This document shows positions 16,675 through 60,355 of a stretch of 64,000 nt of DNA, piece after piece. The translations under genes were made by a program, and so were the position numbers. The stretch is from Stegostoma tigrinum (taxonomy: Eukaryota), in contig NC_081394.1 of the NCBI RefSeq assembly GCF_030684315.1, positions 17,094,658 to 17,158,657 of the forward strand, in the 5' to 3' direction. The notes under the pieces are model-generated. The model was not told the DNA's origin, made no database searches, and worked only from the letters and a program-made list of their open reading frames with translations. Every line of letters starts with the position of its first letter. Positions within the stretch are counted from its first letter, which is position 1.

Positions 16675-17052
16675 ATGGTTGAAGAAAAGAAAGGGCCAGT
16701 TGCTAAGAAGGGCGCTAAGAAAGCGGTGAAGAGGGCGCCAGCGAAAGGCAGCAAGAAGAGGCGAAAGTCCAGGAAAGAAAGTTACTCCATCTACATCTAC
16801 AAAGTGTTGAAGCAGGTTCACCCCGACACCGGGATCTCCTCCAAGGCCATGAGTATCATGAACTCGTTCGTCAAGGATATTTTCGAGCGTATCGCAGGGG
16901 AGGCTTCCCGCTTGACCCGTTACAACAAGCGCAGCACCATGAGCTCCCGGGAGATCCAGACTTCCGTACGCCTGCTGCTGCCCGGGGAGCTGGCCAAGCA
17001 CGCCGTGTCGGAGGGCACAAAGGCGGTGACCAAGTACACCAGCTCCAAGTGA
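16675..17052 (+). CDS. H2B: Histone H2B, replication-dependent type, divergent variant, 125 aa
   Basis: [26 protein letters not shown]...[26 protein letters not shown]; intronless; stem-loop follows. Confidence 0.97.
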
Positions 17053-17080
17053 AACGCCACTTGGCACTGAAAAACCCAAA

Positions 17081-17122
17081 GGCTCTTTTAAGAGCCACCC
17101 ACAAATTCCCTTAAACAGCTGA
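17081..17122 (+). terminator. Histone 3' stem-loop plus HDE-like element
   Basis: CCAAA-GGCTCTTTTAAGAGCC-ACCCA at 17081-17096; AAACAGCTG downstream. Confidence 0.93.
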
Positions 17123-18079
17123 ACCATCGTGTCTCTAATTTGCTTCGCAGTTGCTGCAGGGAAATATTTAACTTCCATTCTTTTTTTAAAATGATCTGTA
17201 AATTAATGTGTGCTTTATTGAGTGAAAATTGCCCATCTACTTTCATTTTCGAAAGAAACATCGTCTCGTCTCACCTTTTAGAATGTGCCCCTGTCTTCAA
17301 ATGCCCATCCCATGGAAAAGACACCTGGCCGCTCACCTTACCTATCCCCCTCATGATTTTAAAAACCTCTATAAAATGACTCTACGACTTCCGAGTCATT
17401 TCTCAGTGACATTGTTCAAATCACCCTTTGCTGGATACCGCTGAGATATGAACTCCCCCGTCAAACAAAATAAACCTGTGCCCACATTTGATTCCCCCCG
17501 GTTGAAAGAGTTCGCGCGCCGTGAGGAATTTCCCAATTACTCTACAGCTTCTGTCCGATTTTGCAGAATATTGTAAATGAGCCTTCCTGTTGTTGGTGAG
17601 AGACTGTAAAAATTAACCGAGATAAAACTTGAACAGTTGTCGGACTGGTGTGCAAGCGCGGAATTATTCAGGTCTGCTATAAAAAGGGCCGCTTTATAAT
17701 ATTGTTTAAAGCATTAATACGCTCACCCGGATGAACGTTGAGATGTTTTATCACTATGTCGGGGTGCTCTTGAAATGCGAAAAAAAATGAATATGTACAG
17801 AGGGCAGTTTGTGGCGCTTTTTTTACGTTTCCGCCTTTTTTTACAGTTAAAAAAATCCCACTCAGGATCGGAAATGGGCAGAGTGAAGTAGACGAGGGAA
17901 TGAGATTTTTAAAAATGTGTGGAATATCCATTCGTAACCTAAAAGTAAATTACCTCGTTAAAAACACTTATGCCTTCCACTTTGTAAAACTTCTTCCTTT
18001 TTTTGTACATATTGGCGGGCTTTTCAAATTTGACGGAAAGCAGTTGATCATTTTGCGGAATAGCGAATTAAGCAATGAC

Positions 18080-19865
18080 GTGAGGGTTAGGGCATGGTTT
18101 AAGGCTTCTGTCACTGTTTGGGTTAGGGTTATGGTCAGGGCTAGGGTTAGGTTTAGATTGAGGTTTACGTTTGGGGCTAAGATTACGGTTCCACCGAGGG
18201 TTCGCGCGATAAGGGAGGGTTATGGTTCGGGCTACGGTTTAGTTTAAGATGAGGGCCAGAGCGAGATTCAATGCAGTGGTGAGATAAGCATAGAAAATAG
18301 AACATAGAACATTACAGCACAGTACAGGCCCTTCGGCCTTCGATGTTGTGCCAACCTGTCATACCGATCTCAAGCCTATCTAACCTACACTATTCCATGT
18401 ACGTCCATATGCTTATCCAATGACGACTTAAATGTACCTAAAGTTGGTGAATCTACTACCGTTGCAGGCAAAGCGTTCCATTCCCTTACTACTCTCTGAA
18501 TAAGGAAACTACCTCTGACATCTGTCCTATATCTTTCGCCCCTCAATTTAAAGCAATGTCCCCTCGTGCTCGCCGTCACCATCCTAGGACAAAGGCTCTC
18601 CCTGTCCACCCTATCTAACCCTCTGATCATTTTATATGGTTCGATTAAGTCACCTCTCAACCTTCCTCTCTCTCATGAAAACAGCCTCAAGTCCCTCAGC
18701 CTTTCCTCGTAAGACCTTCACTCCATACCAGGCAACATCCCAGTAAATCTCCTCTGCACCCTTTCCAAAGCTTCCACATCCTTCTTATAATGCGGTGACC
18801 AGAACTGTACGCAATCCTCCAAGTGCGGCCGCACCAGAGTTTTGTACAGCTGCAGCATAACATCTTGGTTCTGGAACTCGATCCGTCTATTAATGAAAGC
18901 TAAAACACTGTATGCCTTCTTAACAGCCCTGTCAACCTGGGTGGCAACTTTCAAGGATCTGTGTACATGGACACCGAGATCTCTCTGCTCATCTACACTA
19001 CTAAGAATCTTGCCATAAGCCCTGTACTTTGCCTTCTGGTTACTCCTACCAATGTGCATCACCTCACACTTGTCCGCATTAAACTCCATTTGCCACCTCT
19101 CAGCCCAGCTCTGCAGCTTATCTCTGTCTCTCTGCAACCTACAGCATCCTTCGTCACAATCCACAACTCCACCGACCTTAGTGTCGTCTGTAAATTTACT
19201 AACCCATCCTTCTACGCCCTCGTCCAGGTCATTTATAAAAATGACAAACAACAGTGGGGTTACAGTTGGGGTTAGTGCAATGTCTAGGATTAGCGCCTGG
19301 ATTAGAACTGGAGATAGATTTAGTGTTAGTGTTCGGCTTAGGGTTATGGCGAGGGTTTATGTTACGATTAGGGTACAGGTGAAATTTATGGTTCGAGCTA
19401 GGGTGAGGTTCATGCGAGAGGTAGGTCTGATTTTAGCTTTAGGATTAGGGTTCGGGTACTGTTTCATGTCATGGTTCGGCGTTCTGCTGGGGTTGGTGAA
19501 TAGGTTTTGGTTTAAGGTTAAGGCTCGGGCTCGGCTTAAGGTAAAGTTTAGGTGCACGGTTTGGTTAGGTTTAGTGCTCGGATGGGAGATACGATTACGG
19601 TTATGACGAGGTCTAGAGCTAAGGTCTCGGTTAGAGTTGGGGACAGGTTTAGGGCTGAGGTTATCATTGTGGACAGGGCCACGGTGAGAGCGAAGGATAT
19701 GGTTAGGACAAGGAACAGCATAAAGTTCAGTGTTAAGTTTAGGGTTGAGGTTTGAGTTCGTGCTAGGGCTAGGGTTAGACCAAGGAACAGGTTTTGCTTT
19801 AAGGTTTATTATTAGGGCTAGGGTTAGTGTTAGTGTTCGGGTCAGTGTTGTGATTCTGGGGGTTT
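18080..19865 (+). repeat. Degenerate TTAGGG array split by a CR1
   Basis: Hexamer variants at 18080-18285 and 19256-19865. Confidence 0.85.
18288..19255 (-). mobile_element. 5'-truncated CR1 LINE
   Basis: ORF 18718-19251 ([15 protein letters not shown]); 3' microsatellite tail at ~18288-18312. Confidence 0.93.
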
Positions 19866-22139
19866 GTGTTAAAGGAAGGGACGGTGCTACTGCGAGCAAG
19901 AGGGTGAGCGTTAATTGTGAGGAAGTGTCACTGGGCCCGAAACGTTAACTCTAATCACTCTCCAGTTAATGCCAGGCCCGCTGAGCTTTTACAGCAGTTA
20001 CAGTTTCAGCTTCTGATTTTCAGGACCCGCAGATCTTTCGATTTTTATTTAACAAAAGTGAAGAATTTGTGAATGTCTAATTTAGTGCAAGAAGAGAGGG
20101 CGTCTTCAAAATAATGTCAAAAGGCGGTGTTCGCTGTTATCGTGCTCATTCCAAAGAAAGGTGTGTAATGTTTCATATCGGGGAGTTTTTGAAATGTGAA
20201 CTTGAACGATTAGATGCACAGTGCGGTATTTGGCGCTTTCCTCTGCTTGTTCTGAAAGTTCTGAAATCGTCCTTCAAGATCAGGAATGGACACATTCAAT
20301 TAGATGAGGGAAGGAAGTAAAAAGAGATTGTGTGAAATATACATTTGTAATCGAAAAGTAAATTAACTCGTAAGTATTGGTGAACTCTTCTTCTAAACTT
20401 CCTCTTTTTTGTGCATAATGTATGTGCAATGGTGGGCTTTTTAAATTATAGAGAAAGCGGTTGATGATTTCGCGCCCTTATTTTCCAACATCCTCCCCGT
20501 GCCCTCACCGGATATAAGTATGTTGTGTATCTCCTGACTTGTCAATTTCCAAATATCCGCTCAGGTTCTGTTCGGTTGCAGAATGCTGCAAGCGAGCCTT
20601 TCCGCTGTCGGTTCAAACAGAACTGAGATAAAGCCAGAACCAAGGTAGAATAGTTAATGTGGAGCAAATTTGCCAGAAAGGAGAGCAATATTGTCTGAAG
20701 ATGGTGTCCCATTAATACGGTTACTCGGAGGAACGTCCGGCCCAGCAGGAAAGAGGGCATTCGGCCCATCGAGTCTAAACCAATCTCCGAAGGGGAGGAA
20801 ATGAGGGACGGGAGAGATTCTTAGACTTTTTTTGTAATCTAAAACCAAATCAACTGTAAACTACCCATGCATTCTTCTCTGGAAAAATTCCTCCTCCATT
20901 CTACATATTGGCGCGCTTTTCAATTGAGAAAGAAAGCAGTTAATAATTTAGAGACAATTGTTTTCCACCCGCTCCTTCCCTGCCCTGCCCATCGTTGTCG
21001 CCATGGTAACGCCAAGGGAGACAATCAGCAGAGAGGAGATAACAGTGAATTTATCATCTTCTGCACGCATTGAATTTTTAACAGAGATCGGAGAACACAA
21101 CTGGAGTACTCGGCTCTCTCTCCCCCTCTCTCTCTTTCTCTCTCTCTCTCACACACACACAGACACCTACCTGCTGTCACTGCTGATGCTACTGTGGTGG
21201 TGATCAGTAATTCAACTCCTACCGACACATCGCAGAAACTTAAAGGGGCATGTTGATAACCATACTCACCATTCACCAAACATAAACTGATAGGTAGGGA
21301 TTGATAATTCACCTTACAGATGGGCATAAAAGTAAGTGAAAGACATAGATTGGTACCCACACTCTTATATTCATGAGAAGTTGATATATACAGTCACACA
21401 CTCACTTTGCAGTCACTGACAGGAGATAAATTGATGACGACTCACACATTCGCATGACAGAAATTGACAGGTACAGATCAGTAAGTTGACTGACATAATG
21501 TTAAGGTGACGACATCATGTTACAGTCCAACAGTTTTATTTGAAAACAGAAGCAGCGATGAATTCTCCTCTTGACAGCCCGTAGTCCGTCCTTCATTGAC
21601 AAGGCCCAAGCCAGGGGCGTGATGTTTTATCCGACTGACCTGGATGAGTGCAGCTCCAATAACGGTCGCCACATTCAGGGCAAATTGCAACACATCCACA
21701 AGCATCCACTCTCTCGACAGAGTTCGAGTCACTACCACTGCGCAACACGCCTCCCTCCATTAGCTACATTCTGTCTCTGTAATAATCTCCCATTTACTCC
21801 ACCTCTCTGATGTTACTTTAAACAAGGAGTTAATATACACAGGATGAGTGTCGGGAGGATGAAGTGACATATTTCATGGATCAATTCGATCGGCCATTGT
21901 GTTTTGAATCGGGGAAGCTCTATTGAAGGGCCGAATGGCCGTCAGCGTTTCCGATTCCTCATCAGATTCTGCAGAGGCCGAGGGAGGGAGTTCCGACCGT
22001 GAGCCGGGAATGATCTCCATTGGAGCTTCATAAAGGGGTAATGTCCCTGTTTGAAACTTTCTCTGCACTTTCCACCACGGCCCCAGTTCCTTTGCTCAAA
22101 CTTGGTGAAAAGGGAATTGGGAAAATGAGCAATTGATAT

Positions 22140-22555
22140 TTGTTTCCGGGGAAACCTCAGGGGTACGTCGCTTTACGCCGCCCCTCCCCAGCAGCTATAT
22201 GACCGATCGAGAGGAGCGCATGCGTAATATACTTCGCGCCGGCGCTGCCACGGACGAGCATTTGATCAGTGAGACCGCAATGGAGGGAGCAGTGCCCTGG
22301 GAAGCGAGAAGACCAGCAGGCTCCTCCCAGCAGCCCATCGAGATGTGAACCTGGGTCACTGACCGGGGTTCCGTTCGGGGAGAACCGGGGCCTGTTTGTA
22401 AGAGGCCGAGCGGAGCAGGAGCTGATCCGGGAGCTGGAAGTAAGCGGCCTGCGGTTGGGTAAGAGTGAGGCCTTTCTCGGGCTGTGTGTGGGCTGCTCAG
22501 GGATATACTGCGGGAAGCGGCTGCTGTGGTTTTCAATCCTCCGGAGACGGAAGAA
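22140..22555 (+). promoter_or_regulatory. CpG-rich promoter-like segment (copy of 8770-9180)
   Basis: NRF1-type GCGCATGCGT 22216-22225. Confidence 0.5.
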
Positions 22556-22824
22556 AATTCACTGTGTAGTTTCTGTTCAAGCTGTTTGTTGGCATTGTGT
22601 AGTGAATGGTGAACCGTGACAATCCTGTAACGGACATGCATTGGAGGCATTAAATTAATAGTTTCGAGTAAAACGAAACAATTTTTTAGCGATCATAACT
22701 CTGTTTCTTTCACGATAGTCATGGATAAGGATAGGTATATGCGGCAGAGTAAAGTTTAACTTTAGGGGGAAGGGTAATTACAATTCAGCTAGGCAAGAAC
22801 TGGGAAACGTGACGATCCTGTAAA

Positions 22825-23515
22825 AGAGAGAGATAACGGGAACTGCAGATGCTGGAGAATCCAAGATAACAAAGTGTGGAGCTGGATGAACGCAGCAGGC
22901 CAAGCAGCATCTTAGGAGCACAAAAGCTGATGTTTTGGGCCTGGACCCTTCTTCAGAAAAGGGGGACGCTGTATACAGTGTGGCTGCCTCTCCATTGAGG
23001 AAACCAAGCGGAGGCTTGGGGACCGCTTTGCAGAATACCTCCGCTCGGTTCACAGTAAACAATTGCACCTCCCAGTCGCGAAGCATTTCAACTCCCCCCT
23101 CCCATTCCTCAGACGATATGTTCTTCCTGGGCCTCCTGCAGTGCCATCATGATGCTAATGATGCCATAGTTTGCAAGAACAGCAACTCATATTCTGCTTG
23201 GGAACCCCGCAGCCCAATGGTATCAATGTCGATTTCACCGGCTTCAAAATCTCCCCTCCCCCTCACTGCATCCCAAAGCCAGCCCAGCTCGTCCCCACCT
23301 GCCTAACCTGTTCTTCCTCTCACCTATCCCCTCCTCCCACCACAAGCCGTATCTCCTTTTCCTTCCTCCTAACCTCATCCCGCCCTCTTGACCTGGCTGT
23401 CCTCCCCGGACTGACCTATCCCCTCCCTGCCTCCCCACCCATACTCTCCTCTCCATCTATCTTCTCTTCTATCCATCTTTGATCCGCTTCCCCCTCCCTC
23501 CCAATTTATTTCAGA
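22825..23515. mobile_element. PLE insertion (copy of 9452-10143)
   Basis: Same structure and TSD ATCCTGTAAA. Confidence 0.85.
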
Positions 23516-23802
23516 ATCCTGTAAAGGACATGCGTTGGAGGCATTAGATTAATAGTCTGGAGTAAAACATTTGAAGAAGTGTCAGTTGTTCGTCTCTTTA
23601 CTAGTTAGTGGAATGGGACTGGATAATGAACTGTGTAAGCAGTCTACTTGCTTCGAATTGTCCTATTCATGCAGCTGTGCAATTGGTGCTCAGCTCTGGT
23701 TCTCACTCAGTTGGTATAGAATTATATAAAACAAAACAGTCATCAGACAAGGAGAGCTCAGGGCAAAATGGATTAACAGTCCAGCGATAATACAACAAAC
23801 CC

Positions 23803-25833
23803 ATTGCCTCCCTACACAGGTGTAAGCGATTGACATGGTTGTCTAATTCACATGAGTATCTGCTGTGAACATGGTGGGTGGTGCTCCCACATAGGATGGT
23901 AGTGCCTATGTTGTAGATCTGACGTGCCTTTCACGGCTTACCATGACAGGGTTGTATAGTGTTGTGGTTCATGTAGTCCTGAAGGCTAGGTAGTTTGCTG
24001 TGAGCAATGTTCTGTTTAAGGTTTTGCGGTTGTTTGAAGGCAGGTACTGGAGGTGTCAGGAAGATCTTTGTGAGGGCCTCATAGTCATGAGTAATGTGTT
24101 GAAGGCTATGAAGAACATGGCGCAGTTTCTCCACTCTCATCAAGTACTGGACGATGAAGGGTACCCTATCGGTCGTATCCCGCATCATGAGGTTATCTGT
24201 AGGCCTGTGTTAGAGTGAAGTATTTAGGTATCTGTGTCTGGTGGAGATGTCTGTGTCCAAGAGTGAGATTGATTGTAAAGAGTAGTCAATGGTAAGTCTC
24301 TTGGTGGGATGGAACTTGTTGATATCACTCCGTCGTTGCTTCAGTGATTCCTCAGACTACGTCCAAAGGAAGAAAATATCATCAATGTATCTGGTGGAGA
24401 ACTTTGGACGGACGTTCTGTGCAACAAAGAAGCCTTGTTGGAACATCTGCATGAAAATGTTGGCATGTTGGGGAGCACATCTGGCCCCTATGGCTGATGC
24501 ATGTGTTTGGTTGGAAAACTGGCTGTCAAAGGTGAAAGTGTTACGGTCAAGGATGAAGTGGATGAGTTGTCGGATGGCGTCTGGAAATCAGCTGCTGGTG
24601 GTATTGAATACTGTGACTGTTGCTGTGATGCTGTCATCATGGCGGTTGCTGTTGCAGTGAGCCAAAACCTCCACTGTGACAAAGAATTTTCCTGGTTTGG
24701 TTGGTCTGTGGGTGCCAGGTTTCTGTAAGAAATCTGCCGTGTCGTGACAGAAGCTGGGGATTCCCTGTATGATGAGTTTCAAGATGCCCTTGACATAGCC
24801 AGAGAGGTTCTCACACAGGGTCCCATTGCCTGATAGGATGGGACGTTCTGATGTGTTGGCTTTGTACATCTTTCAAAGGCAGGAGAAGGCCCCCAATCAG
24901 GAAGTTTGTGGAATGAGAGTGCGTATGGTACTCTGAAGAATTGGATCAAAGCTCTTGACCAGTCTGTTCAGTTGGCAGGTGTGTTCCTTGCTTGGATTGG
25001 TAGGTCTGTAGTGTTGCTGGTTGTTCAGGTGTTGGAACACTTTCTTGCAGTAGTCAATTGATGATGTAATATGTACGACGATGCCTCTGACATTGTCATC
25101 AAAGCAGCAATTTTCTGGTTGGACTTGAGAATGTGGATGTTAATATATTGTGCTTGGGTGACATTTTGCACTAACTTGTGAGTTTGGTTGATGAATCTGG
25201 CATTCATGCATTCGCTGATGAATTGAGCAAACCTGTCAAGCCCAATGCATTGGCCCCTTTGGAGGTGTCGAATTTGGACCGTTGGGTAAACGTACTTTGA
25301 GGCAGATTTCAGGATACACGACAGCATAGAGTTGCGGAGCAGAGGCTGAGAACCAAGTTCCATACCCATGAGGATGGCTTCAACTAGAATCTTGGGTTCA
25401 TGTCGCACTATAGGTGACCCCACTGCATTGTACACCTGCTCTCTTTTGCTATCTTTCACATGCTCAGTCACAGTTTATGTCAGTGACATGCACACATAAA
25501 TCAGTGGAGTGAATTTGTATTTGCAGGTACATTCTATTTTTTTATTCTGAAAGCACACTATTTATCGACAGTCAGTCAATCGAGTTTCATAAATTAATGC
25601 TTTAGAAATAAAACTAGTCTGACTCAAAACCCAATTGCAAACAGATTTGAAACAAGCTCTCACACATAGCATGCATTACCTGATGTAAAATGTCACCTCT
25701 TCATGACACTGTTGAAACATTTGGTTTTCACAGGGCAGTGACATCAATGCAATTTGAGGGCTTTCATCTGCATATTAATCAATTAAAATATTTAACTGAT
25801 TAAAGATTTCACTCTATCTTAGGTTTGTTTGCT
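23803..25833 (-). mobile_element. Degenerate RT-containing PLE (copy of 10430-12455)
   Basis: Near-identical ORF fragments. Confidence 0.8.
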
Positions 25834-25849
25834 ACAAATAAGTAAGAAC

Positions 25850-27185
25850 ACTGGCAGATACACAGTGCAGAAACTTACAGGCCGAGACCGGACAATTCCA
25901 GGCACACATGCACGGAGCAAATCTGACATGTACATTCTGATAACTGGCCTCACACATGAACCAAGCTGAAACTGAAATGTACGGATCGATAACTGAACTC
26001 GAGGCCACTTCATAAATTGATAGGTGTAGATTGATATCTGCAATCTCATTTTCACATAGCAAAAACGGAGAAGTCCAGCTTAGCAGATGCAGTCACAAAT
26101 TTGCAATACAGTAACTGACAGGGACACACTGATGACAGCATTCACGTTCACATTGACAAAACTGGCTACATACAGACCAATAACAACACTCACATAGTCA
26201 CGTTGCAGAAATTAACAGGTAGAAATTGATAACTGTACCCATACATTTACATTGCAGAATAGAACAGGCACAGGTCTATAAATACAGGTACATATTTGCA
26301 TTCCAGTATCCGTTAGTGACAGGATAAGAAACATATCAGAAACGGATACGCATAGATTGTGAATATGCGAATGTATGTATCAAAGCAAATACTGAGAAGT
26401 ACAGCTTGGCAAATGCAGTCACACATTTGCATTGCAGTAACTAACAGGGACACACTGACAAAACTCATGTTCACATGACAGTATTGGATAGGTACTGACC
26501 AATGACCACTCTGACAGCATGACTTAGCAGAAACTGACAGGTAGAATCTGACCTGTATATTCAAAATGCAGAAATTAACAGGTACACATTGATAACTCCA
26601 GGCACAAATCTGTATTCCAGTCTCTGTCAGGGGCAGTTGAATAAACAGTCCTCTTACATCCACAGAGCTGAAACTCACAGGAACAGAATGATTACTGAAC
26701 TCACATATTCATGTGGCATAAATGGATAAGAACAGTTTGATAAATAATGCACAGAACAGGATCTCACAGCTGTATATTGATAATGACAGGCACAGGTTCA
26801 TTTAGCAATAACTTACAGGGGGTGGTTAAAACGTTATCCCATATTCATACATCAGAAACAGATAGGTGCAGCTTTATAACTGTACTCGATTCAACAAGCA
26901 GAACCTAACAGACGTAGATGGATAACTAAACACGCATATGAACAGAGTAGAACCTGACTGGTACAGATTGATGATTAAACTTAAATATGAGCATAGCAGA
27001 AACTGACAGAAATAGGTTTGTACCTGCATACTAATACTCCCAGACCAGAAACTGGCAGATACAGGCTGAGAACTATTTACACACATTTGCCAAGCAGGAA
27101 CTGACAAGAACAGGTCAGTAATAACACTGCAGGTTTCACACCACACAAACTGGTTACAGATTGATAACTACAGTCGCATATTCAT
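25850..27185. repeat. Degenerate 49-bp minisatellite
   Basis: Copy of 12470-13805. Confidence 0.8.
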
Positions 27186-27186
27186 G

Positions 27187-30100
27187 AGCCTTCCATGCGG
27201 CCCTCCATTTTTGTTTCAGCAGCAGGAGGAGCGGGAGCGTCGACCAGGTAGCTGCCGGGAAGGTGAGTCACTGTTTGAAAAACTTACCTCGCGAATAGGC
27301 GGAGCATACGCTGAGCAGGAGCGGACACGGTTCTGCTGAGTTAGCGAGGTAATATTTTTGTGGTTGCGTTACCCGAAACAGTACTCGGGTAGTGTCTCCC
27401 ACCCATCCTCCTCCTCTCACCAAAAAAAAGGTTCTGTGCACCAGATTGGTAAGGTAACTAGTTTATTTTCTATTCTTTGTTTTTCAACAGTCTCTTTGGG
27501 AATTTAGAATAATGGGAATGGAAGTCGGGGGAGTAGAAAGTTCCTGCAGCAGAATGTGGGAAGTAAGGGTGACCACTAGTGTCCCTGCTGACTACATGTG
27601 TTGGAAGTGCACCCAACTCCAGCTCATCGGAAACTGCGTTAGGGAACCGGAGCTGGATGAACTTTGGATCATTCGGGAGGCAGAGGGGGTTATTGAGAGG
27701 CGTTACAGGGAGGTAGTCTCTACTCATGTACAAAAAAAAGGCAGATGGGTTACAGTCAGGGGATGGAAAGGGAACTGGCAGGCAGTGCAGGGATCCCCTG
27801 TGGCCATTCCCCTCAATCATAAGTATACCGTTTTGGATACTGTTGGCTGGCGGGGTGGGTGACTTACCAGAGGAAAGCAATGGGGCACAGGTCTCTGGCA
27901 CAGAAAGGACGGGGGAAGAGGAGCAGAGCAGTAGTCACTGGGGACTCCAGAGTTAGGGGGACAGATAGGAGGTTCTGTGGGGACGAGAGAGCTCACGGTT
28001 GGTGTGTTGCCTCCCTGGTGCCAGGGTGCGGGATGTCTCTGATCGTGTTTTTGGGATCCTTAAGGGGGAGGGGGAGCAGCCCCAAGTCGTAGTCCAGATA
28101 GGCACCAACGACATAGGTCGGAAGAGAGATGGGGGTTTAAGGCGGAAATGCAGGGAGCTAGAATGGAAGCTTCGAGCTGGGATGAACAGAGTTGTTGTTT
28201 CTGGTTTGTTGCCCGTGCCACATGCTGGTGAGGCGAGGAATAGGGAGAGAGAGGAGTTGAACACGTGGCTACAGGGTGCATTGGGGAGGGTTTTGGATTC
28301 TTGGATAATTGGGGCTCTTTCTGGGGTAGGTGGGACCTCTACAAGCAGGATGGTCTTCACCTGACCCAGAGGGGTACCGATATTCTGGGGGGGAAGTTTG
28401 CTAAGGCTATTCGGGTGGGTTGAAACTAACTCAGCAGGGGGATGGGAACCAAAATTGTAGTTCGAGTATCGAAAAGGTTGAGAGTAGGGAGGTCCAAAAT
28501 AAAGTTTCAGGGATGTAACATGGCACCAGCGAGCAAGAAATTGGTTTGAAGTGCGTCTATTTCAATGCCAGGAGCATCCGGAATAAGGTGGGGGAACTTG
28601 CAGCATGTGTTGGTACCTGGGACTTTGATGATGTGGCCATTTCGGAGACATGGATAGAGCAGGGACAGGAATGGTTGTTGCAGGTTCCGGGATTAAGATG
28701 TTTCAGTAAGAACAGAGAAGATGGCTAAAAGAGGGGGAGGTGTGGCATTGTTGGTGAAGGACAGTATTACAGTTGCAGAAAGGATGTTTGGGCACTCGTC
28801 AACTGAGGAAGCATGGGCTGAGTTCAGAAAACGGAAAGGAGAGGTCACTCTGTTGGGAGTTTTTTATAGGCCTCCGAATAGTTCCAGATATGTTGAGGAA
28901 AGGACAGCAAAGATGATTCTCGATAGGAGTGAGAGAGACAGGGTAGTTGTCATGGGGGACTTCAACTTTCAAATATTGATGGGACCACTATAGTTCGAGT
29001 ACTATGGATGGGTCTGTTTTTGTCCAGTGTGTGCAGGAGGGCTTCCTGACACAGTATGTAGACAGACCAACAAGGGGCGAAGCCACATTAATTTGGTACT
29101 GGGTAATGAGCCCAGCCAGGTGTTAGATTTGGAAGTAGGTGAGCACTTTGGTGATAGCGATCACAATTCTGTTATGTTTACTTTCGTGATGGAAAGGGAT
29201 AGGTGTATACCACTAGGCAAGAGTTATAAGGCTTGAGAAAGGCAATTACGATGAGATTAGGCAAGATTTAGGGAGCATAGGATGGGTAAGGAAACTGCAG
29301 GGGATGGGCACATTAGAAATGTGGAGCTAATTGAAGGAAAAGCTCCTGTGTGTCCTAGATAAGTATGTACCTGTCAGACAGGGAGGAAGCAGGAGAGCGC
29401 AGGAGCCGTGGTTTACGAAGGAAGTGAAATCTCTGGTCAAGAGGAAGAGAAAGGCTTCTGTTAGGATGAGATGTGAAGGCTCAGTTAGGGCGCTTGAGGG
29501 TTACAAGGTAGCCAGGAAAGACCGAAAGAGAGAGCTCGGAAGAACCAGGAGGAGACATGAGACGTTGTTGGTGGATAGGATCAGTGCAGACCCTAAGGCT
29601 TTCTATAGGTATTTAAGGAATAAAAGAATGATGAGAGTAAGATTAGGGCCAATCAAGCATAGTAGTGGTAAGTTGTGTGTGGAGTCAGATGAGATAGGGG
29701 AAGCAGTAAATGAATATTTCTTGACAGTATTCACTCTAGAAAACGACAATGTTGTCGAGGTGAATACTGGGATATAGGCTACTAGACTAGGTGGGATTCA
29801 GTTTCACAAGGAAGAGGTATTAGAAATCCTACAGAGTGTGAAAATCGAGAAGTCCCCTGGGCTGGATGGGATTTATCTTAGGATCCTCTTGGAAGCCAGG
29901 GAGGAGATTGCCGAGCCTTTGGCATTGATCTTTAACTTGTCATTGTCTGCAGGAATAATGCCAGAAGACTGGAGGATGGCAAATGTGGTTCCCCTGTTCA
30001 AGAAGGGGAATAGAGACAGCCCTGGTAATTGTAGACCAGTGAGCCGTACTTCAGTTGTTGGTAAAGTGTTGGAAACAGTTATAAGAGAGGAGTTATAATC

Positions 30101-31392: not shown

Positions 31393-31394
31393 TG

Positions 31395-33049: not shown

Positions 33050-33202
33050 CTACCCAATCACAGAGAGATTTAGCATGAGGGTTTTGACAGCGTATAAAGT
33101 AACCAATGAGGAACGAGGCTTTCCCCATCCTTCATTTGCATTGCTGACGCCAACAGTCTGCAAAAAGCCAGCTCCGGGCCCGCTCTCCCTGATTCTGTCA
33201 CC
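33050..33202 (+). promoter_or_regulatory. H2B promoter (copy C)
   Basis: Two CCAAT boxes; octamer 33134-33141. Confidence 0.8.
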
Positions 33203-33580
33203 ATGGTTGAAGAAAAGAAAGGGCCAGTTGCTAAGAAGGGCGCTAAGAAAGCGGTGAAGAGGGCGCCAGCGAAAGGCAGCAAGAAGAGGCGAAAGTCCAG
33301 GAAAGAAAGTTACTCCATCTACATCTACAAAGTGTTGAAGCAGGTTCACCCCGACACCGGGATCTCCTCCAAGGCCATGAGTATCATGAACTCGTTCGTC
33401 AAGGATATTTTCGAGCGTATCGCAGGGGAGGCTTCCCGCTTGACCCGTTACAACAAGCGCAGCACCATGAGCTCCCGGGAGATCCAGACTTCCGTACGCC
33501 TGCTGCTGCCCGGGGAGCTGGCCAAGCACGCCGTGTCGGAGGGCACGAAGGCGGTGACCAAGTACACCAGCTCCAAGTGA
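33203..33580 (+). CDS. H2B: Histone H2B variant, 125 aa
   Basis: Same protein as 16675-17052; one synonymous difference noticed (ACG vs ACA). Confidence 0.97.
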
Positions 33581-33608
33581 AACGCCACTTGGCACTGAAA
33601 AACCCAAA

Positions 33609-33650
33609 GGCTCTTTTAAGAGCCACCCACAAATTCCCTTAAACAGCTGA
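33609..33650 (+). terminator. Histone 3' stem-loop plus HDE-like element
   Basis: GGCTCTTTTAAGAGCC 33609-33624. Confidence 0.93.
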
Positions 33651-36074: not shown

Positions 36075-36411
36075 ATGAGTGGAAGAGGAAAGAGCACGAA
36101 AGCTCGCTCCACGCCTAAGTCTCGGCCGTCCCAGGCTGGCCTGCTGTTCCCGGTGGGCCGGAGCGCCGGTCTATCTGGCTGCGGTGCTCGAGTACCTGAC
36201 GGCTGAAATCCTCGAGCTGGCCGGTCAGGCGGCCCGGGACAACAAGAAGACCCGCATCATCCCCAGGCACCTCCAGCTGGCCGTGCGTAACGACGAGGAG
36301 GTCAGCAAGCTGCTGGGAGTGGTGACCATCGCTCAGGGCGGGGTGCTGCCTAATATCCAGGCTGTACTACTGCCCAAAAAAACAGTCGCTGGGAGCACCC
36401 CTAAAAAGTGA
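36075..36411 (+). pseudogene. H2A: Histone H2A pseudogene with ~50-nt frameshifting deletion
   Basis: MSGRGK...AGLLFPVGR from 36075; [22 protein letters not shown]...[11 protein letters not shown] in another frame; VHRLLRKGNYAERVGA missing at 36160/36161. Confidence 0.92.
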
Positions 36412-36442
36412 CGAGTCCCATTCTTGAACCTGACAACCCAAA

Positions 36443-36480
36443 GGCTCTTTTAAGAGCCACTCACATCTGAGAGAGGAACT
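36443..36480 (+). terminator. Histone 3' stem-loop of the H2A pseudogene
   Basis: GGCTCTTTTAAGAGCC 36443-36458; purine-rich GAGAGAGGAA downstream. Confidence 0.9.
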
Positions 36481-36509
36481 AGGCCCTCACTTCTGTCGGG
36501 TTGATTTAG

Positions 36510-42187: not shown

Positions 42188-42272
42188 ACTCTGTGATATA
42201 ATTAATCTACAGAGGCCCCCTTGGAAGTCATTGCCTTCAATTAGGTAATATTGGAAGTTGGGAATCACTTTG

Positions 42273-46085: not shown

Positions 46086-46109
46086 GTATATTTGTGATTC
46101 TTTATTCAT

Positions 46110-46452: not shown

Positions 46453-46464
46453 CTATGTTTGTAT

Positions 46465-48139: not shown

Positions 48140-48965
48140 TTCAGTTCCAACATGTCACAGTGAAAAACCGCAATGACCTCATCAGAAGACAAACACAGCA
48201 CACAACCGATAGAGTACCCCTTGTTGTTCACTACTTCCCCGGAGCAGAGAAACTACGTCATGTTCTTTGCAACCTTCCACATGTCATCAATGCCAATGAG
48301 CACCTCACCAAGATCATTGCTACTCCTTCACTTCTCACCATCAAACAACCGCCAGCCTTAAACGGACCATCATTCTCAGCAAATTACCTTACCTTCAGGA
48401 CAACATCAACCATAACAGCACACCACCATTGCACTTGGGAGTACCACCTACCATATACACAACAGATACGCATGTGATTCAGTGATAGAAGAAATTGCTG
48501 ATGCTGGAGAATCTGAGATAACAAGGTGTAGAACTGGATGAACACAGCAAGCCAAGCAGCTTCAGAGGACCAGGAAAGCTGACGTTTTGGGTCTGGACCC
48601 TTCTTCAGAAAAGCTCTCTACCTTATGATCTCAGATATTCATGTGACTTGGCCAATGTTGTCTACCTCATATACTGCAGGCAAAGGGTGCCCCAAGGCAT
48701 GGTATAAAAGCAAGACAACCGAGACACTATGGCAAAGGATGAATGTAACAATCGCTGGACAGGAATGTTCCCGCCCAGTCAGGGAAAACTTCAGCAGTCA
48801 AGGACATTCATCACTGATCTTTGGGTAAGCATCCTCCAAGGCAGCCTTCAGGATACACAACAATGCAGAATCACTGAGCAGAAACTGATAGCCAAGTTCC
48901 GTACCCATGTAGGTAGCCTCAACTGTGATCTTGGATTCATGTTGTGCTACAAGTGACCCCACCAT
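48140..48965 (+). mobile_element. PLE fragments (second family) with a nested inverted terminus at ~48490-48612
   Basis: TTDRVPLVVHYFPGAEKLRHVL; EQKLIAKFRTH. Confidence 0.7.
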
Positions 48966-49231
48966 ACTGTTATATATGTGTAAAATTTTTCTTAGTGTCC
49001 TGTTTTGACATAGAATAGTACAGCACAGAAACAGGCCCTTTGGCCCACCATGACTGTGTTGACCATGATGCCATTCCAAATTAATCTCATCTGCCTGCTC
49101 ATGGTCCTCTGTCCACTGATGACTTGTTATGATCTCTCTACCTTAATTAGTTTGTACAATGTTGTATTATTTGTTGCTTTGGTTCGACCCTCAGCGTGTG
49201 ACTCTGATAGTTATCATGCTATTCCAGCCAT

Positions 49232-50860: not shown

Positions 50861-50884
50861 TAACACTTTGTTATCGACAACCTC

Positions 50885-51510
50885 ACTTCGGTTACGTTCT
50901 GGATTACTGTTCAAAATCTCAATGCGTGCAGAAGATTATAAATTCACTGTAAAATTCCTCTCTGTTCATTGTCTCTCGGCGTTACCCCAGCTGTAGCTAT
51001 CGGTATTCACTGATTAGAAGAGGGTCGCGGCGGAAAAAAAATGTCGCTAAATTATTTACCGCTTCCTTCCTAATTCGAAAAGCCTGCCACTATGTGGAAA
51101 GGAGGACGAAGTTTTACAAAGAAGTATGTGTTGGTACTAAGTAGTTGATTTGGTTTTAGATTACTAAAGTATAGTTCACACAACCCCTCATTCCATCGTC
51201 CATTTCGGGCGATCCTATTCGGAGGGTCGGTTCAGACCAAATGGTCAAAATGCTCTCTTTCTGCTGTGCACAGATTCCATAAATTTTCTTCCCGCTGACA
51301 TGGGGAAACAGTCACCAGACAATATTTTTAAGTCGCTCTCCTTTCTTCCAAATTTACACCGCATTAACTATTCCACTCTGATTCTGTTTTATTTCAGTTC
51401 AGTTTGAAAGCTTGAAACCGGCAACGGAAAGCCTCACATATAGCATTCTGCAACCGGACAGAACTCGTGTGGTGTTTTGGAAATTGAGAAGTAACAATAC
51501 GTGCAATATA
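50885..51510 (-). repeat. Inverted, diverged paralog of ~6210-6780
   Basis: CAATGCGTGCAGAAGATTATAAATTCACTGT and GTTGATTTGGTTTTAGATTAC are reverse complements of sequence near 6720-6752 and 6513-6533. Confidence 0.75.
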
Positions 51511-51514
51511 TCCA

Positions 51515-54310: not shown

Positions 54311-54474
54311 TTTCTCATTTGTTCATTCATTCTCAAGGGGTCAGTAAATATTTACAAGTTTCTGCTCCACTCAAACACAAAATCACAACTGAACACAGAA
54401 GGAGAATGAGATCTATTTATTCCACCTGAAACTCTGGCATACATAACAAATGAGACTATAGCAAACTTTTCATA

Positions 54475-55285
54475 TCTGACAAATGTTCACCTGAACGTCC
54501 TCCAACCTGGTCTATTGTATCAGTTGCTTCTGATGTGGCCTCCACTACATTGGTTGAGACCAAGCACAGACTTGGGACTGTTTTGTGCAGCATCTGCACT
54601 GTATAATTCTAATCGACAACATCTTCTGGTCACTAACCATTTTAACACCCCTCCCACTCCATTGACGACATGTCCATCCTGGGCCTCCTCCAGTGCCAGA
54701 ATGATGAGACATGCAAACTGGAACAGCAACACCTCATAATCCACCTCAGGAGCCTACAGCCCTATGGGCTGAACATAGAATTCACCAGTTTTAAAATCTC
54801 CCCACCCCTGGCCTCATCCCATGTCCAAACCCTTCTCATTCATCCCTCCTTAACCTTACACAACCTGTCCATCTTATTCCCCACCTATCTGCCCAACCCT
54901 TCCCACTGACCAAACCCCAGTACCCCTACCTCCATCAGACTATCAGCATCCCCACCTACCTTTCCCCAGCTCGACATATCCTCCCTCCCACCTTCTTGAC
55001 CTGACACAGCCTGTTCATCTTCTCTTCCACCTATCTGCCATGCCCATTCCACTGACTAAACCACACCACTCCCTGCCCGCATCCACCTATCACCACCCCC
55101 AAGTACCATTCCCCAGCCCCACCCCTCCTCTCGCTATTTATTTCACATCTCCCTGCCCCTCCCATTTCTGAAACTGACCTGAAACATCAGCTTTCATGCT
55201 CCTCTGATACTCTCTGATCTGCTGTGTTCCTCCAGCTCCATATTGATTTGTCTCTGACTCCAGCATCTTCAGTTTTTGCTACCTC
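54475..55285 (+). mobile_element. Old PLE 3' part
   Basis: MSILGLLQCQNDETCKLEQQHLIIHLRSLQPYGLNIEF plus pyrimidine-rich tail. Confidence 0.75.
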
Positions 55286-55911
55286 CCTAAAGTTATGCAC
55301 AGACGGATGAGTGCAGAAAAATGTCAAATTAGCATTTATTTCCAGACAGTGACAGTCAATGGATGAAGTTCTTATTCCCAACAATTACTAGAATCTGGTC
55401 TGCAGAACAGATGCAGAATAAAATGTCACAGTGCAGATATAATGGGCCGAATGACCTTTTATGCTGTACCAATTCTGTGATTCTGATTCTGGTGAAAACG
55501 GAAATTCTTCTGTTACATAGAGCTGCATAAAACTATCACGTAGAAATGGACTGAGAGAAACAGAAATGTTCACAAATGAGCATCAGCAACGTCCAAGGAC
55601 AGAATGAAACCACAGAACCCTAAAAAAGAAAATGTCCCACACTGTCAGGCAATACTAACATCTGGTATAAGTAACATATATATTTCCTACAGTCATGATC
55701 CAAATAAGAAGTTGCATTGATGATTCAGAATGGTTCTCAGATGAAAGCAGTCCCCTCCTACCATCACCTCTCCCACTGCAGATGTAAATGTCAACTCATA
55801 ACTCACAAAATACAGAAGAGATTAAGACCCAGTCTCTCAACACCCTAATAACTAATATCACAGAATGAATTACACAGATATGAAAAATATGACTGGCTGG
55901 CAGAGAATTAA

Positions 55912-56078
55912 GAGATAACAAGGAGTAGACTTGGATGAACACAACAGGCCAAGCAGCATCAGAGGACCAGGAAAGCTGACATTTCTGAAGAAGTGTCGAG
56001 GCCTGAAACGTCAGCCTTCCTGCTCCTCTGATGCTGCTTGGCCTGCTGTGTTCATCCAGCTCTACACCTTGTTATCTC
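55912..56078. mobile_element. Palindromic element of inverted PLE termini with a hammerhead core
   Basis: GAGATAACAAGG to CCTTGTTATCTC; CTGAAGA 55985 and GAAACGTC 56005-56012. Confidence 0.8.
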
Positions 56079-56079
56079 A

Positions 56080-59000
56080 AGTACAGGTTAATACCTACAC
56101 TCACATATTCACGTGGCAGAAACAGCTATAAAGATATTGTTGATGAAACTCCCATTCAGGTAGCAAAAGAATTGAAAGGTATAGATCTGCAGAGCAGATA
56201 CTGATAGAATAGATTGGGAATAACATTTGCAGTTTCAAATTGTATAAATTTTGTATAAAGTTGTACAAATTGTATAACGTTTGATAACTTGGGGCGGCAC
56301 GGTGGCTCAGTGGTTAGCACTGCAGCCTCACAGCGCCAAGGACCCGGGTTCGATTCCCACCTCAGGCGACTGTCTGTGTGGAGTTTGCACATTCTCCCCG
56401 TGTCTGCGTGGGTTTCCTCCGGGTGCTCCGGTTTCCTCCCACAGTCCAAAGATGTGCAGGCTAGGTGGATTGGACATGCTAAATTGCCCGTAGTGTTCAG
56501 GGTTATGGGGGCATGGGCCTGGATGGGATGCTTCAAAGGGCGGTGTGGACTTGTTGGGCCGAAGGGCCTGTTTCCACGCTGTAGGGCATCTAACATCTAA
56601 CAACTGTACTCACATATTGATGGAATAGAAACTGACAGTGACAGATTGATGATACCACTCAAGCATTCAAATTACAGAAACTAACACTCACACATTCGCA
56701 CAGCAAACAGTGACAGACATAGATTGATAACTACACACAGATATGCACAAAGCAGAAACTGACAGGAACAAAATGATAATAACACTTCCAGATCCATATA
56801 ACATAAACAGACGGGTACAGTTTGATAACTACACTCACATATTGACAGGACAGAAAGTGACAGACACAGATTGATACCTGCCCGCATAGATTCACATTGC
56901 AAAAAGTGACAGGTGCAGGAATATAATTACAGCCAGACCTTCACATTACAGTAACTGACAGGTACAGATTGATAACTAATTTCACAAATTCATTTGCGAA
57001 AACAGAGGCCTAGATGGATAACCATGTTAACACATTAACATAGCGGAAACTGACATGTACAGGTTAATAGCTAGAGTCACATTCACATTGCAGTAACTGT
57101 CAGGGAAAGGTTGATGATGGTAGTCACATGTTCACATGAGAGAACTGACAGTTCTGAATTGCTGACTAAACTCACGTATTGATATAGCAGAAAGTAACAG
57201 GCGTAGATTGATACCTGCATTGACATTCATATGGCAGAAACTGACAGGTGCAAGTTGGTAGGTACGCTCAAATATTTACATTGTAATAATTAACAGAGGC
57301 AGAATGATCATAGTACTCAGGTTCACATTACAGAAACTAAAAGAGACAGATCAACAACCACACTCACAACACACATTTACAATGCTGTGTTTATCGAAGT
57401 CTGCACCTTGTTATCTCTTAATTCTCTGCCAGCCAGCCATAGTTTTCATGTCTGTGTAATTCATTTTGTGATAGTAGTTATTAGGGTGTTGAGAGACTGG
57501 GTCTTAATCTCTTGGTATTTTGTGAGTTATGAGTTGACACTTACATATACGGTGGGAGAAGTGATGGTGGGAGGGGGACTGTTTTCATCTGAGAGCCATT
57601 CTGAATCATCAACACAACATTTATTTGGATCATGGCTGTAGGAAATATATATATTACATATCAGTTTGATAACTGCAGTCATGTATTCACACAGTAAGTA
57701 CTGACTGGGATAGATAGTTATTTATATGTGAATGTGTGAGTGTAGGTATCTATCAAGAACAAGTTGATAACTGCACTCAAATGTTGACATATCAGAAAAA
57801 GCCAGGAACAAATTAGTAACTGAACTCAGACATTCTCACAGAAGGGACGAACAGAGACAGTCTGATAACTACACTCGCACATTCTCATAGCAGAAGTTGA
57901 CGGTTACATATTAATAGCTTCACTCTGAGATACAAAGAGTAGAAACTGACATGGACAGATTGGTAAATACGTTCATATTCACATGGCAGTCATGGCCAGA
58001 GGAAGATTGATAACAAATTTCTCATATCCATACAGCAGAAATTGACAGGCATAGATCGATAACTACACTCATATGTTCACATATAAGAAACGGACAGGGA
58101 GAGAATGATAACTACACTGATATTCACACAGCTAAAACTGACATATTGATAAATACATTCAGATATTCTCAAACCAGAAACTGACAGGAACAGATTAACA
58201 ACAACATTCTCAGATTTACAAAACAGAAACTGATAAGGACAGATTCATAAATATATTCACACATTAACATAGCAGAAAGTAACAGGAAGAGATTGCTAAC
58301 TGGACACGAACTTTCATATCGCATAAAATGAAAGATACAGATTGATAACTTCACTTACGCACTCACAAAGCGGAAACTAACAGTTACAGATTGGTAACTA
58401 TTCTCACATGTTCATCATTCTAAAATTGACACGTACAGAATAGTAAGCACATTCACATATTCACAGAGCAGAAACTGATAAGAACAGATTGATAACAGTA
58501 CATATTCGGAGGGCAAAATCGTATAGATGCAGATCGATATCTACTCTCGTTGACAGTGCAGAAACTAACAAGCACAGATGGATAACTTCACTTACACATG
58601 CATATAGCTGAAAAGGACAGGGAGAGAATGATAATTACGTAGACATTCAAACAACAATATCTGACAGATATAGATTGATAACTGCATTCACATACTCACA
58701 AACTCGAAACTGATGGGCAGAGATTAAAAACTGCATCATACACTCACATAGCAGAAACTGACAATTACAAATTGATGACTACACTTTCATATTCACACAG
58801 CAGAAAATGACAAGAACAGGTTAACAATAAAACTCCCGGTTTCACATAGCACAAATGGAAAGGTCCGGCTTGAAAACGACGCATTTTCGTAGAGCAAAAC
58901 CTGACAGGTACAGCCTCGTAAATACACACACATTAACTAAGTAGAAATTGACAGGTAGAGATGGATAATTAAACTCACATATTGACATAACAGAAACTGA

Positions 59001-59330
59001 GAGACATACATTGATTCCCGCACCCATTCATTCACAAGGCAGAAAATGAGAGGCATAGATGGTAGTTTCTCTCGTATATTTGAATATTAAAGACTGTCAG
59101 TTATGGACTGTCAACTAAACTCTCGTTTACATGGCAGAAACTGATAGGAACAGGTCAGTGGTGAGCTTCACTTTTTCACATAGCAAAAGCCGGTAGTTAC
59201 ATATCGATAACGACAGTCATAGTCACGCAACAGAAACTGTCAGGTCGAGATTGAGAAATGCACTCTCACATTCACAATGCGGAATTAGATACAGATTGAT
59301 AATTACACTCCTGGAAACAGGACAAACTAG
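56080..59330. repeat. Long degenerate 49-bp minisatellite, interrupted by a SINE and an inverted duplication
   Basis: Approximate consensus ACAGATTGATAACTACACTCACATATTCACATAGCAGAAACTGACAGGT; GCAGAAA at 58751 and 58800. Confidence 0.85.
56291..56602 (+). mobile_element. Full-length young HE1-type SINE
   Basis: GGGCGGCACGGTGGCTCAGTGGTTAGC, GGTTCGATTCCC, tail ATCTAACATCTAAC. Confidence 0.92.
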
Positions 59331-59824
59331 CCCTCAATAAACTTGAAACTCTGAACAACACAGTTCACAGACAACTATAAAGCAAAGAAGAACAGACTTG
59401 CACATAAGAGTTTGCAAATGAAACACATTGTCATAATTTGACATCGCAAAAGTACTCTGTTGAAATTAATCCTGAAATAACAATCGCCAGGTCAGTGTGA
59501 ATACAACTGCCTTGTGAGTAAATAAAGTTCAGAAAAAATCCGCCAACATAGACTCGCCCGCATTAAATTATGTGGATTTATCAGAAAGTCATGAAACTGT
59601 GTTAAATCCAGTCCATACAGAGGGTCTGAAACTGACATGTGCGGCTGGAAACACAGACTCCCACATCATTATAGCAAAGAACAAAAGGCACAGAGCCAAT
59701 AGCGCAGTAACTTTCAGTGTCACAAGCACAAAACAATTCTCTCTCAGTCGGATTGACAGGAATAAAATCAAGTTCCACACAACATTTAGATGCAGTTCCT
59801 GACAGATTCACTTTTCGACCCACA

Positions 59825-59977
59825 CTACCCAATCACAGAGAGATTTAGCATGAGGGTTTTGACAGCGTATAAAGTAACCAATGAGGAACGAGGCTTTCCC
59901 CATCCTTCATTTGCATTGCTGACGCCAACAGTCTGCAAAAAGCCAGCTCCGGGCCCGCTCTCCCTGATTCTGTCACC
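59825..59977 (+). promoter_or_regulatory. H2B promoter (copy D)
   Basis: Two CCAAT boxes; octamer 59909-59916. Confidence 0.8.
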
Positions 59978-60355
59978 ATGGTTGAAGAAAAGAAAGGGCC
60001 AGTTGCTAAGAAGGGCGCTAAGAAAGCGGTGAAGAGGGCGCCAGCGAAAGGCAGCAAGAAGAGGCGAAAGTCCAGGAAAGAAAGTTACTCCATCTACATC
60101 TACAAAGTGTTGAAGCAGGTTCACCCCGACACCGGGATCTCCTCCAAGGCCATGAGTATCATGAACTCGTTCGTCAAGGATATTTTCGAGCGTATCGCAG
60201 GGGAGGCTTCCCGCTTGACCCGTTACAACAAGCGCAGCACCATGAGCTCCCGGGAGATCCAGACTTCCGTACGCCTGCTGCTGCCCGGGGAGCTGGCCAA
60301 GCACGCCGTGTCGGAGGGCACAAAGGCGGTGACCAAGTACACCAGCTCCAAGTGA
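59978..60355 (+). CDS. H2B: Histone H2B variant, 125 aa
   Basis: Same protein as copies B and C. Confidence 0.97.

What the first reader, a model, noticed from the sequence alone, without database searches (positions are those of the whole stretch)
16675..60355. Amplified divergent H2B variant with histone-fold substitutions
Seen: three copies encode the same protein. Relative to canonical vertebrate H2B (human numbering) it has N67K, A81T, H82R, I89M, T90S and A97S, plus an MVEEKK N-tail; K120 and the acidic-patch residues E105/E113 are retained. Established: the helix-2 C-terminal region around Y83 contacts H4, and these positions are strongly conserved in vertebrates. Inference: an undescribed elasmobranch H2B variant, possibly germline, that changes nucleosome stability. 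Identity between copies could reflect conversion rather than selection.
Basis: partly seen in the sequence, partly recalled or inferred. Interest (0 to 1): 0.7.

Follow-up and report, generated by a model that had tools for sequence, protein, structure and literature searches.

The report
Carpet-shark orphan histone H2B subtype
This shark genome keeps five near-identical copies of a slightly altered histone H2B gene in a side cluster whose other core histone genes are broken; a whale shark gene shares its key changes, so it is likely a real but minor subtype that would build near-normal nucleosomes, and nothing yet shows where it is switched on.

Summary
In detail: three intact stem-loop H2B genes encode one protein with the listed substitutions. 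The genome holds five such copies and a LINE-truncated one on C53, apart from the main array on C56. T81, R82, M89 and S97 are the real marks; one whale shark protein shares R82, M89 and S97 and groups with it (99/95). Selection is purifying (omega 0.09-0.27 against C56; 7 residue differences from whale shark against 15-27 expected if neutral), while neighbouring H2A, H3 and H4 are pseudogenes. Copy identity is gene conversion. No evidence supports a germline role or changed stability: known destabilising sites are canonical, R82 and S97 occur in other eukaryotes' H2B, 0/20 dispersed pseudogenes derive from it, and its TATA box is mutated. Expression is untested. The scan had not reported this locus; its earlier shark histone-variant notes concern a different cluster. 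Verdict: an apparently unnamed, lineage-restricted minor H2B subtype of modest interest.

The parts
16675..17052 (+). Intact H2B subtype gene, copy 1 (125 aa; T81, R82, M89, S97), start context ACCATGG
33203..33580 (+). Intact H2B subtype gene, copy 2 (other flank type; one synonymous difference)
59978..60355 (+). Intact H2B subtype gene, copy 3
4043..4264 (+). Truncated copy: first 74 codons identical, then replaced by LINE reverse-transcriptase-like sequence; no stem-loop
17076..17121 (+). Histone 3' stem-loop (RF00032) followed by AAACAGCT, the same downstream motif as in most C56 genes
33604..33649 (+). Histone 3' stem-loop of copy 2
60379..60424 (+). Histone 3' stem-loop of copy 3
16526..16639 (+). 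Promoter of copy 1: two CCAAT boxes (16526, 16575), perfect octamer ATTTGCAT (16606), TGACG (16617), and TGCAAAAAG (16631) in place of the TATA box; same elements at the same offsets in the other copies (33054-33167, 59829-59942, 3894-4007)
16475..17125 (+). Approximate gene-conversion tract (about -200 to +450 from the ATG), nearly identical among copies whose flanks differ by 17-25%
36075..36411 (+). H2A pseudogene with a 50-nt frameshifting deletion, former partner of copy 2; stem-loop at 36438-36482
8020..16312 (.). One of the recent segmental duplications (97% identical to 21394-29715) that raised the copy number; repeat-rich DNA

Best explanation
These are five intact, gene-converted copies of one H2B paralogue, the only core histone gene left unbroken in a side (orphon) histone cluster, and it likely acts as a minor replication-type H2B subtype of the zebra shark/whale shark lineage that would build near-normal nucleosomes. 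Shown: a piece of the main histone array came to lie on C53; its H2A, H3 and H4 genes are broken; the H2B gene fixed T81, R82, M89 and S97, kept its frame, stem-loop, CCAAT boxes and octamer, was multiplied by recent segmental duplication, and is homogenised from promoter to stem-loop. Inferred: it is transcribed weakly or in few cells (octamer intact, TATA mutated), its mRNA is cut at the stem-loop like other replication-dependent histones, and the protein pairs with H2A from C56. Predicted: R82 adds one positive charge in the pocket behind the H2A L1-L1' contact, M89 and S97 are conservative, and nucleosome stability changes little.
For: Separate locus and clade: five C53 copies against a large array on C56, DNA tree support 99/97. 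Broken neighbours in the 264 kb examined: 3 H2A, 1 H3 and 2 H4 remnants with deletions and frameshifts, against 5 of 6 H2B copies intact. Selection: NG86 omega 0.12-0.27 over the CDS and 0.09-0.22 over residues 34-125 against 20 C56 coding sequences; private changes 13-15 synonymous against 7 replacement over 86 and 289 sites. Whale shark P0027 shares L45, R82, M89 and S97, is sister with 99/95 and differs at 7 residues, where neutral drift at the published dS of 0.061-0.111 (PMC13100897, passages) gives 15-27, P at most 0.014. Conversion: 2 segregating CDS sites among 5 copies, both synonymous, while flanks of the two copy types differ by 17-25% (P at most 2e-5). Mild chemistry: G53, D68, F70, E71, E76, Y83, E105, E113 and K120 kept; R82 with S97 in a barley H2B (P0031), and T81/R82/S97 or M89/S97 in other eukaryote proteins; canonical Trypanosoma H2B has Arg at the H82 position, and a smaller residue there goes with lower stability (10.64898/2026.09.18.752700, passage).
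Against: No expression data: no RNA holder was on record and no reads were laid. The TATA box reads TGCAAAAAG in 5 of 5 copies, against TATAAAAAG in 21 and TACAAAAGG in 3 of 24 distinct C56 promoters, which fits a gene on its way to silence. Orthology with the whale shark gene rests on one protein; its DNA and synteny were not available. If local dS were 0.04, the 7 differences would not reject neutrality (P 0.16-0.20). Two synonymous sites alone are weak evidence of present-day selection. The structural reading rests on papers and recalled nucleosome contacts, not on a model computed here.
Confidence: 0.58

Rival explanations
1. Specialised germline or stage-specific H2B variant: the gene left the main cluster's control, lost its TATA box, is driven by the octamer in germ cells, and the clustered changes at 81-97 alter DNA grip or dimer exchange.
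For: All four diagnostic changes fall within 17 residues (end of helix 2, loop 2, helix 3), where bulk shark H2B is nearly invariant (186-188 of 190 at each site). The perfect octamer (5 of 5 copies, 0 of 24 distinct C56 promoters) is shared with 3 of 3 printed promoters of the divergent C44 H2B genes, which also change positions 81, 82, 89 or 97. The gene was kept and amplified while its partners decayed. In mammals, H2B.1 differs from core H2B by only three conserved fold residues, all five widespread variants are germline-expressed, and H2B.1 and H2B.W keep stem-loops (PMC8857922; abstract, passages and section 6).
Against: No expression evidence. 0 of 20 dispersed H2B pseudogenes sampled carry R82 with M89, and the diagnostic pattern occurs only at the five C53 copies; this is weak, as the gene is young and low-copy. 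No sign of X linkage. The substitutions are residues used by H2B in other eukaryotes. The best-known small lineage-restricted variant, mouse H2B.E, was found in neurons, not germ cells.
Confidence: 0.2
2. Redundant or dying relic: the four changes were fixed by drift under relaxed constraint soon after the cluster piece moved, the TATA mutation has since silenced it, and the clean frames reflect recent duplication and conversion of one template in a slowly evolving genome.
For: TATA mutated in all copies; one copy already destroyed by a LINE; all core partners dead and the nearby H1 has a 15-nt deletion in its fold and a degenerate stem-loop; duplications are 95-99% identical; about 8 replacement changes over 289 sites from the whale shark gene is near the genome-wide median dN (0.015-0.034), fast for a core histone.
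Against: Replacement changes are strongly depleted against synonymous ones; 3 of the 4 fold differences from the whale shark protein fall on sites that also vary in bulk shark H2B (38, 60, 67); stem-loop, downstream motif, octamer, CCAAT boxes and start context are intact in all five; the converted tract stops at the edges of the functional unit.
Confidence: 0.2
3. Assembly artefact or ordinary bulk shark H2B.
Against: Each copy has its own flanks and junctions; an independent species carries the same signature; no C56 gene examined has any of the four residues.
Confidence: 0.02

Closest known systems
Mouse/rat H2B.E (PMC8857922, section 5 part 1 read)
   Same: Lineage-restricted H2B known from two close species, a handful of residues from core H2B (five, three in the fold), in a small cluster apart from the main array.
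   Different: H2B.E is single-copy with a shown function in olfactory neurons and intact neighbours; this one has five converted copies, dead partners, other diagnostic positions and no expression data. No orthology.
Replication-dependent H2B of sharks, MVEEKKGQ tail class (L006-L009; P0029, P0030, P0032)
   Same: Tail type, S60, S90, intronless gene, stem-loop, promoter layout; about 90% protein and 82-83% DNA identity; the subtype nests in this class in the protein tree (94/89).
   Different: T81, R82, M89, S97; separate contig; perfect octamer, mutated TATA, 16-nt shorter leader; dS about 0.3 from C56 genes.
Mammalian H2B.1 (TSH2B/TH2B) and H2B.W (PMC8857922; passages, sections 5-7)
   Same: Few fold changes with a kept stem-loop (H2B.1); recurrent gene conversion among copies (H2B.W).
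   Different: Both arose in eutherians and are shown germline genes; H2B.W is under 50% identical to core H2B in the fold. Analogy only.
H2B.K (PMC8857922, sections 6-7)
   Same: Changes cluster around loop 2.
   Different: H2B.K has an intron, a polyglutamine tail and poly(A) signals; this gene is intronless with a lysine-rich tail and a stem-loop.
Orphon histone genes (term recalled; seen only in a search listing)
   Same: Displaced piece of a tandem histone array that diverges and decays.
   Different: Here one member is held under selection in two species and re-amplified rather than lost.

Membership tests
Replication-dependent metazoan H2B gene | Intronless histone-fold H2B ORF | tested here: met
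Replication-dependent metazoan H2B gene | 3' stem-loop with downstream element | tested here: met
   RF00032 above gathering score in 3 of 3 window copies; AAACAGCT shared with most C56 genes (its reading as the U7-binding element is recalled)
Replication-dependent metazoan H2B gene | Octamer ATTTGCAT in the promoter (PMC5706932, passages) | tested here: met
   5 of 5 copies
Replication-dependent metazoan H2B gene | TATA box as in the main array | tested here: not met
   TGCAAAAAG in 5 of 5 copies; TATAAAAAG in 21 of 24 distinct C56 promoters
Replication-dependent metazoan H2B gene | Clustered with working H2A, H3 and H4 genes | tested here: not met
   only broken H2A, H3 and H4 in 264 kb
Replication-dependent metazoan H2B gene | S-phase expression | not testable with these tools
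   no reads laid
Histone variant in the phylogenetic sense (criteria as applied in PMC8857922) | Own clade apart from core H2B | tested here: met
   DNA tree 99/97; protein tree with whale shark P0027 99/95, 48 rows kept, P0061 left out by the program
Histone variant in the phylogenetic sense (criteria as applied in PMC8857922) | Diagnostic residues conserved across orthologues | tested here: met
   R82, M89 and S97 together in two species only; 1 of 190 other chondrichthyan proteins
Histone variant in the phylogenetic sense (criteria as applied in PMC8857922) | Orthology confirmed by synteny | not testable with these tools
   no whale shark DNA available; P0027 lies on another scaffold than the other whale shark H2B proteins listed
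Histone variant in the phylogenetic sense (criteria as applied in PMC8857922) | Purifying selection with faster evolution than core H2B | tested here: met
Histone variant in the phylogenetic sense (criteria as applied in PMC8857922) | Distinct expression or chromatin function | not testable with these tools
   no data
Germline H2B variants (H2B.1, W, L, K, N) | Orthology to a named clade | tested here: not met
   nests within shark replication-dependent H2B; no intron or polyglutamine tail; the named variants themselves were not in my trees
Germline H2B variants (H2B.1, W, L, K, N) | Germline expression | tested here: inconclusive
   indirect only: 0 of 20 sampled dispersed pseudogenes derive from it

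The most novel reading that the evidence does not exclude
A histone variant caught at birth: a fragment of the shark histone array was cut loose, lost every core partner, traded its TATA box for an octamer-led promoter, and its H2B became a germline or embryo-stage variant whose R82/M89/S97 patch tightens the DNA gyres at the H2A L1-L1' contact, kept for about 50 million years in zebra and whale sharks and now amplified fivefold.
Probability: 0.18. Interest if true: 0.58.

Novelty: new member of a known kind. Interest (0 to 1): 0.3.

Why it matters
If expressed, it is a young, dated example of how an H2B variant arises from a displaced piece of a replication-dependent cluster, with its dead siblings still beside it as a built-in neutral control. 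It would add a cartilaginous-fish case to a class described mostly in mammals (H2B.E, H2B.O). It also shows that calling shark histone variants against human H2B misleads: half of the apparent substitutions are the shark norm. It does not, on present evidence, bear on a long-standing question or reveal a new chromatin mechanism.

Tried and rejected
X linkage: rejected as unsupported; none of 91 homeodomain matches lies on C53, a four-homeobox group lies on C204, and TIMELESS lies on C64 (its place in the human chromosome 12 block homologous to the shark X is recalled); the separase search found nothing and is uninformative. Germline footprint by retrocopies: 20 of the dispersed matches were fetched; 4 scored best or tied best to this gene by BLAST but none carries R82 with M89, one has R82 alone. 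Wider distribution: two protein searches (best 120 shown each) and 20 cluster look-ups (at most 15 members listed per cluster) gave no carrier of the full signature in Chiloscyllium, Hemiscyllium, Heterodontus, lamniforms, carcharhiniforms or batoids; members of large unlisted clusters could hide one. Poly(A) option: hexamers lie 416-904 nt after the stop and differ between copy types, so no conserved signal. Membership in H2B.K, H2B.1 or the C44 divergent set: rejected by gene anatomy and trees. The bacterial promoter scan and tRNA scan (none) do not bear on the question. No structure or complex prediction was run: it would return a textbook fold without contact energies. Paper searches for direct data on H2B positions 82, 89 and 97 gave one useful passage.
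Full report
Observation. The window holds three intact 125-codon H2B genes at 16675, 33203 and 59978 (+), identical in protein and differing by at most one synonymous base. Each has an RF00032 stem-loop. The listed substitutions and the retained K120, E105 and E113 are correct against solved H2B chains. A fourth copy at 4043 is identical for 74 codons and then passes into LINE sequence. A fourth stem-loop belongs to an H2A pseudogene at 36075-36411 with a 50-nt deletion.

Genome setting. The window is G000:C53:17094658-17158657. A protein search of the genome scored 150 of 301 candidates and returned 135 matches: five 100% matches within about 100 kb on C53, then a long run of 76-90% matches on C56, a few divergent genes on C44, and dispersed decayed copies. 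A diagnostic 29-base pattern with two mismatches allowed finds exactly the five C53 copies. Two C56 proteins are identical to proteins named Stegostoma tigrinum, so the genome is likely a zebra shark (inference). In 264 kb around the window the other histone genes are three H2A, one H3 and two H4 remnants with deletions and frameshifts, and one H1 with an open frame but a 15-nt deletion in its fold and a degenerate stem-loop. This is a displaced piece of the main array in which H2B is the only intact core gene. Recent segmental duplications of 95-99% identity raised the copy number.

What is special and what is not. Among 190 distinct chondrichthyan H2B proteins, S90 is in 190, S60 in 168, the tail type in 163, K67 in 17; T81 is in 2, R82 in 2, M89 in 2 and S97 in 1. 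In this genome's own C56 genes K67 and L45 also occur. The subtype is therefore defined by T81, R82, M89 and S97. One whale shark protein (P0027, XP_020380705.2) has L45, V81, R82, M89 and S97 and is its sister in a 48-row protein tree (99/95), inside the MVEEKKGQ tail class of carpet sharks (94/89). In a 37-row DNA tree of this genome's genes the five copies form their own clade (99/97) next to the C56 genes and far from the C44 genes. The two species split about 50 million years ago (PMC13100897, passages). Synteny could not be checked.

Selection. Against 20 distinct C56 coding sequences, dS is 0.27-0.35 and omega 0.12-0.27 over the whole CDS, 0.09-0.22 over residues 34-125. Changes private to the subtype are 13-15 synonymous and 7 replacement over 86 and 289 sites. 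The whale shark protein differs at 7 residues; simulated neutral drift at the published per-chromosome dS range of 0.061-0.111 gives 15-27 differences (P at most 0.014), but at dS 0.04 the test would not reject neutrality (P 0.16-0.20). The gene is constrained, though less than a core histone.

Conversion. The five intact copies have two segregating CDS sites, both synonymous. They fall into two flank types that differ by 17-25% outside a tract from about -200 to +450, inside which they are nearly identical. About 15-21 synonymous differences would be expected at that divergence; at most 2 are seen (P at most 2e-5).

Control elements. All copies keep two CCAAT boxes, TGACG, an ACCATGG start, the stem-loop and the downstream AAACAGCT. 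They carry the perfect octamer ATTTGCAT, the Oct-1 site of mammalian H2B promoters (PMC5706932, passages), where 24 of 24 distinct C56 promoters read ATTAGCAT. The TATA box reads TGCAAAAAG in 5 of 5 copies, against TATAAAAAG in 21 and TACAAAAGG in 3 of the 24. No conserved poly(A) signal was seen. The inference is replication-type processing with weak or restricted transcription. Expression itself is untested: no RNA holder was on record and no reads were laid.

Likely effect on the nucleosome. G53, D68, F70, E71, E76 and E113, whose mutations impair nucleosomes (PMC10657182, passages), and Y83 are canonical. H82 lines a cavity behind the H2A L1-L1' contact; canonical Trypanosoma H2B has Arg there, and the smaller residue in H2B.V is linked to lower stability (10.64898/2026.09.18.752700, passage). 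R82 with S97 occurs in a barley H2B, and T81/R82/S97 or M89/S97 in other eukaryote proteins (these were picked by likeness to the query, so they show tolerance, not frequency). That position 89 pairs with H2A loop 1 and that 97 is buried in helix 3 is recalled, not computed. The prediction is a near-normal particle with slightly more positive charge (20.7 against 18.8 for two bulk proteins), not a loosened one.

Germline? Nothing shows it. None of 20 sampled dispersed pseudogenes carries R82 with M89, and C53 shows no sign of being the X. In favour, only analogy: small fold changes and stem-loops are compatible with germline variants in mammals (PMC8857922; abstract, passages, section 5 part 1, sections 6 and 7), and the divergent C44 H2B genes share the perfect octamer and changes at the same positions.

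Novelty. The protein is in NCBI collections, and its whale shark counterpart carries only an automatic name. Four searches aimed at shark or cartilaginous-fish H2B variants (6 of 7, 20 of 154, 6 of 7 and 20 of 147 papers listed, seen as listings) showed no description; subscription journals and HistoneDB were not searched. The finding is a new member of a known kind, closest in character to mouse H2B.E. Interest 0.3; about 0.58 if tissue-specific expression and a chromatin effect were shown.

Noticed in passing
L089-L093 (G000:C44 near 12.70, 26.69 and 26.95 Mb): Four far more divergent intact stem-loop H2B genes with altered H2A, H1 and H4 neighbours. One has I81/R82/T97 and one has M89, the same positions changed in the C53 subtype; three printed promoters carry the perfect octamer. 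Probably the variant cluster of earlier scan notes; its MHC setting was not checked.
   Followed up: partly
L040, about 5.0-5.6 kb before the window start (G000:C53 near 17,089,000-17,089,640, +): H1 with an open frame but a 15-nt in-frame deletion in the globular domain, many replacements and a degenerate stem-loop: either a decaying gene or a partner variant.
   Followed up: partly
window 36075-36411; copies at about -25,300 and +82,000 in window coordinates: H2A pseudogene with the same 50-nt deletion region missing in three copies, stem-loop still intact.
   Followed up: yes
L006-L009 (C56): The MVEEKKGQ class of C56 H2B has cysteines at positions 31 and 38 and a weakened TATA (TACAAAAGG).
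   Followed up: no
window 16660-16674 and the same place in the other copies: The leader lacks a 16-nt piece present in all 24 C56 promoters aligned; the piece holds an AG that might be the splice acceptor proposed for C56 H2B genes in an earlier scan note. Not tested.
   Followed up: no
L103 (G000:C11:43877379-43878296): Young dispersed H2B copy, about 89.5% identical to both the C56 MVEEKKGQ class and the C53 subtype but with bulk residues at 45, 81, 82 and 89.
   Followed up: partly
G000:C204 (4,436-193,117) and C64: Four homeoboxes within 190 kb on a small contig (likely the Hox C cluster) and TIMELESS on C64 (likely the X chromosome).
   Followed up: no
window 56668-59049: Degenerate tandem repeat of about 240-300 nt period just upstream of the copy 3 duplication unit.
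   Followed up: no
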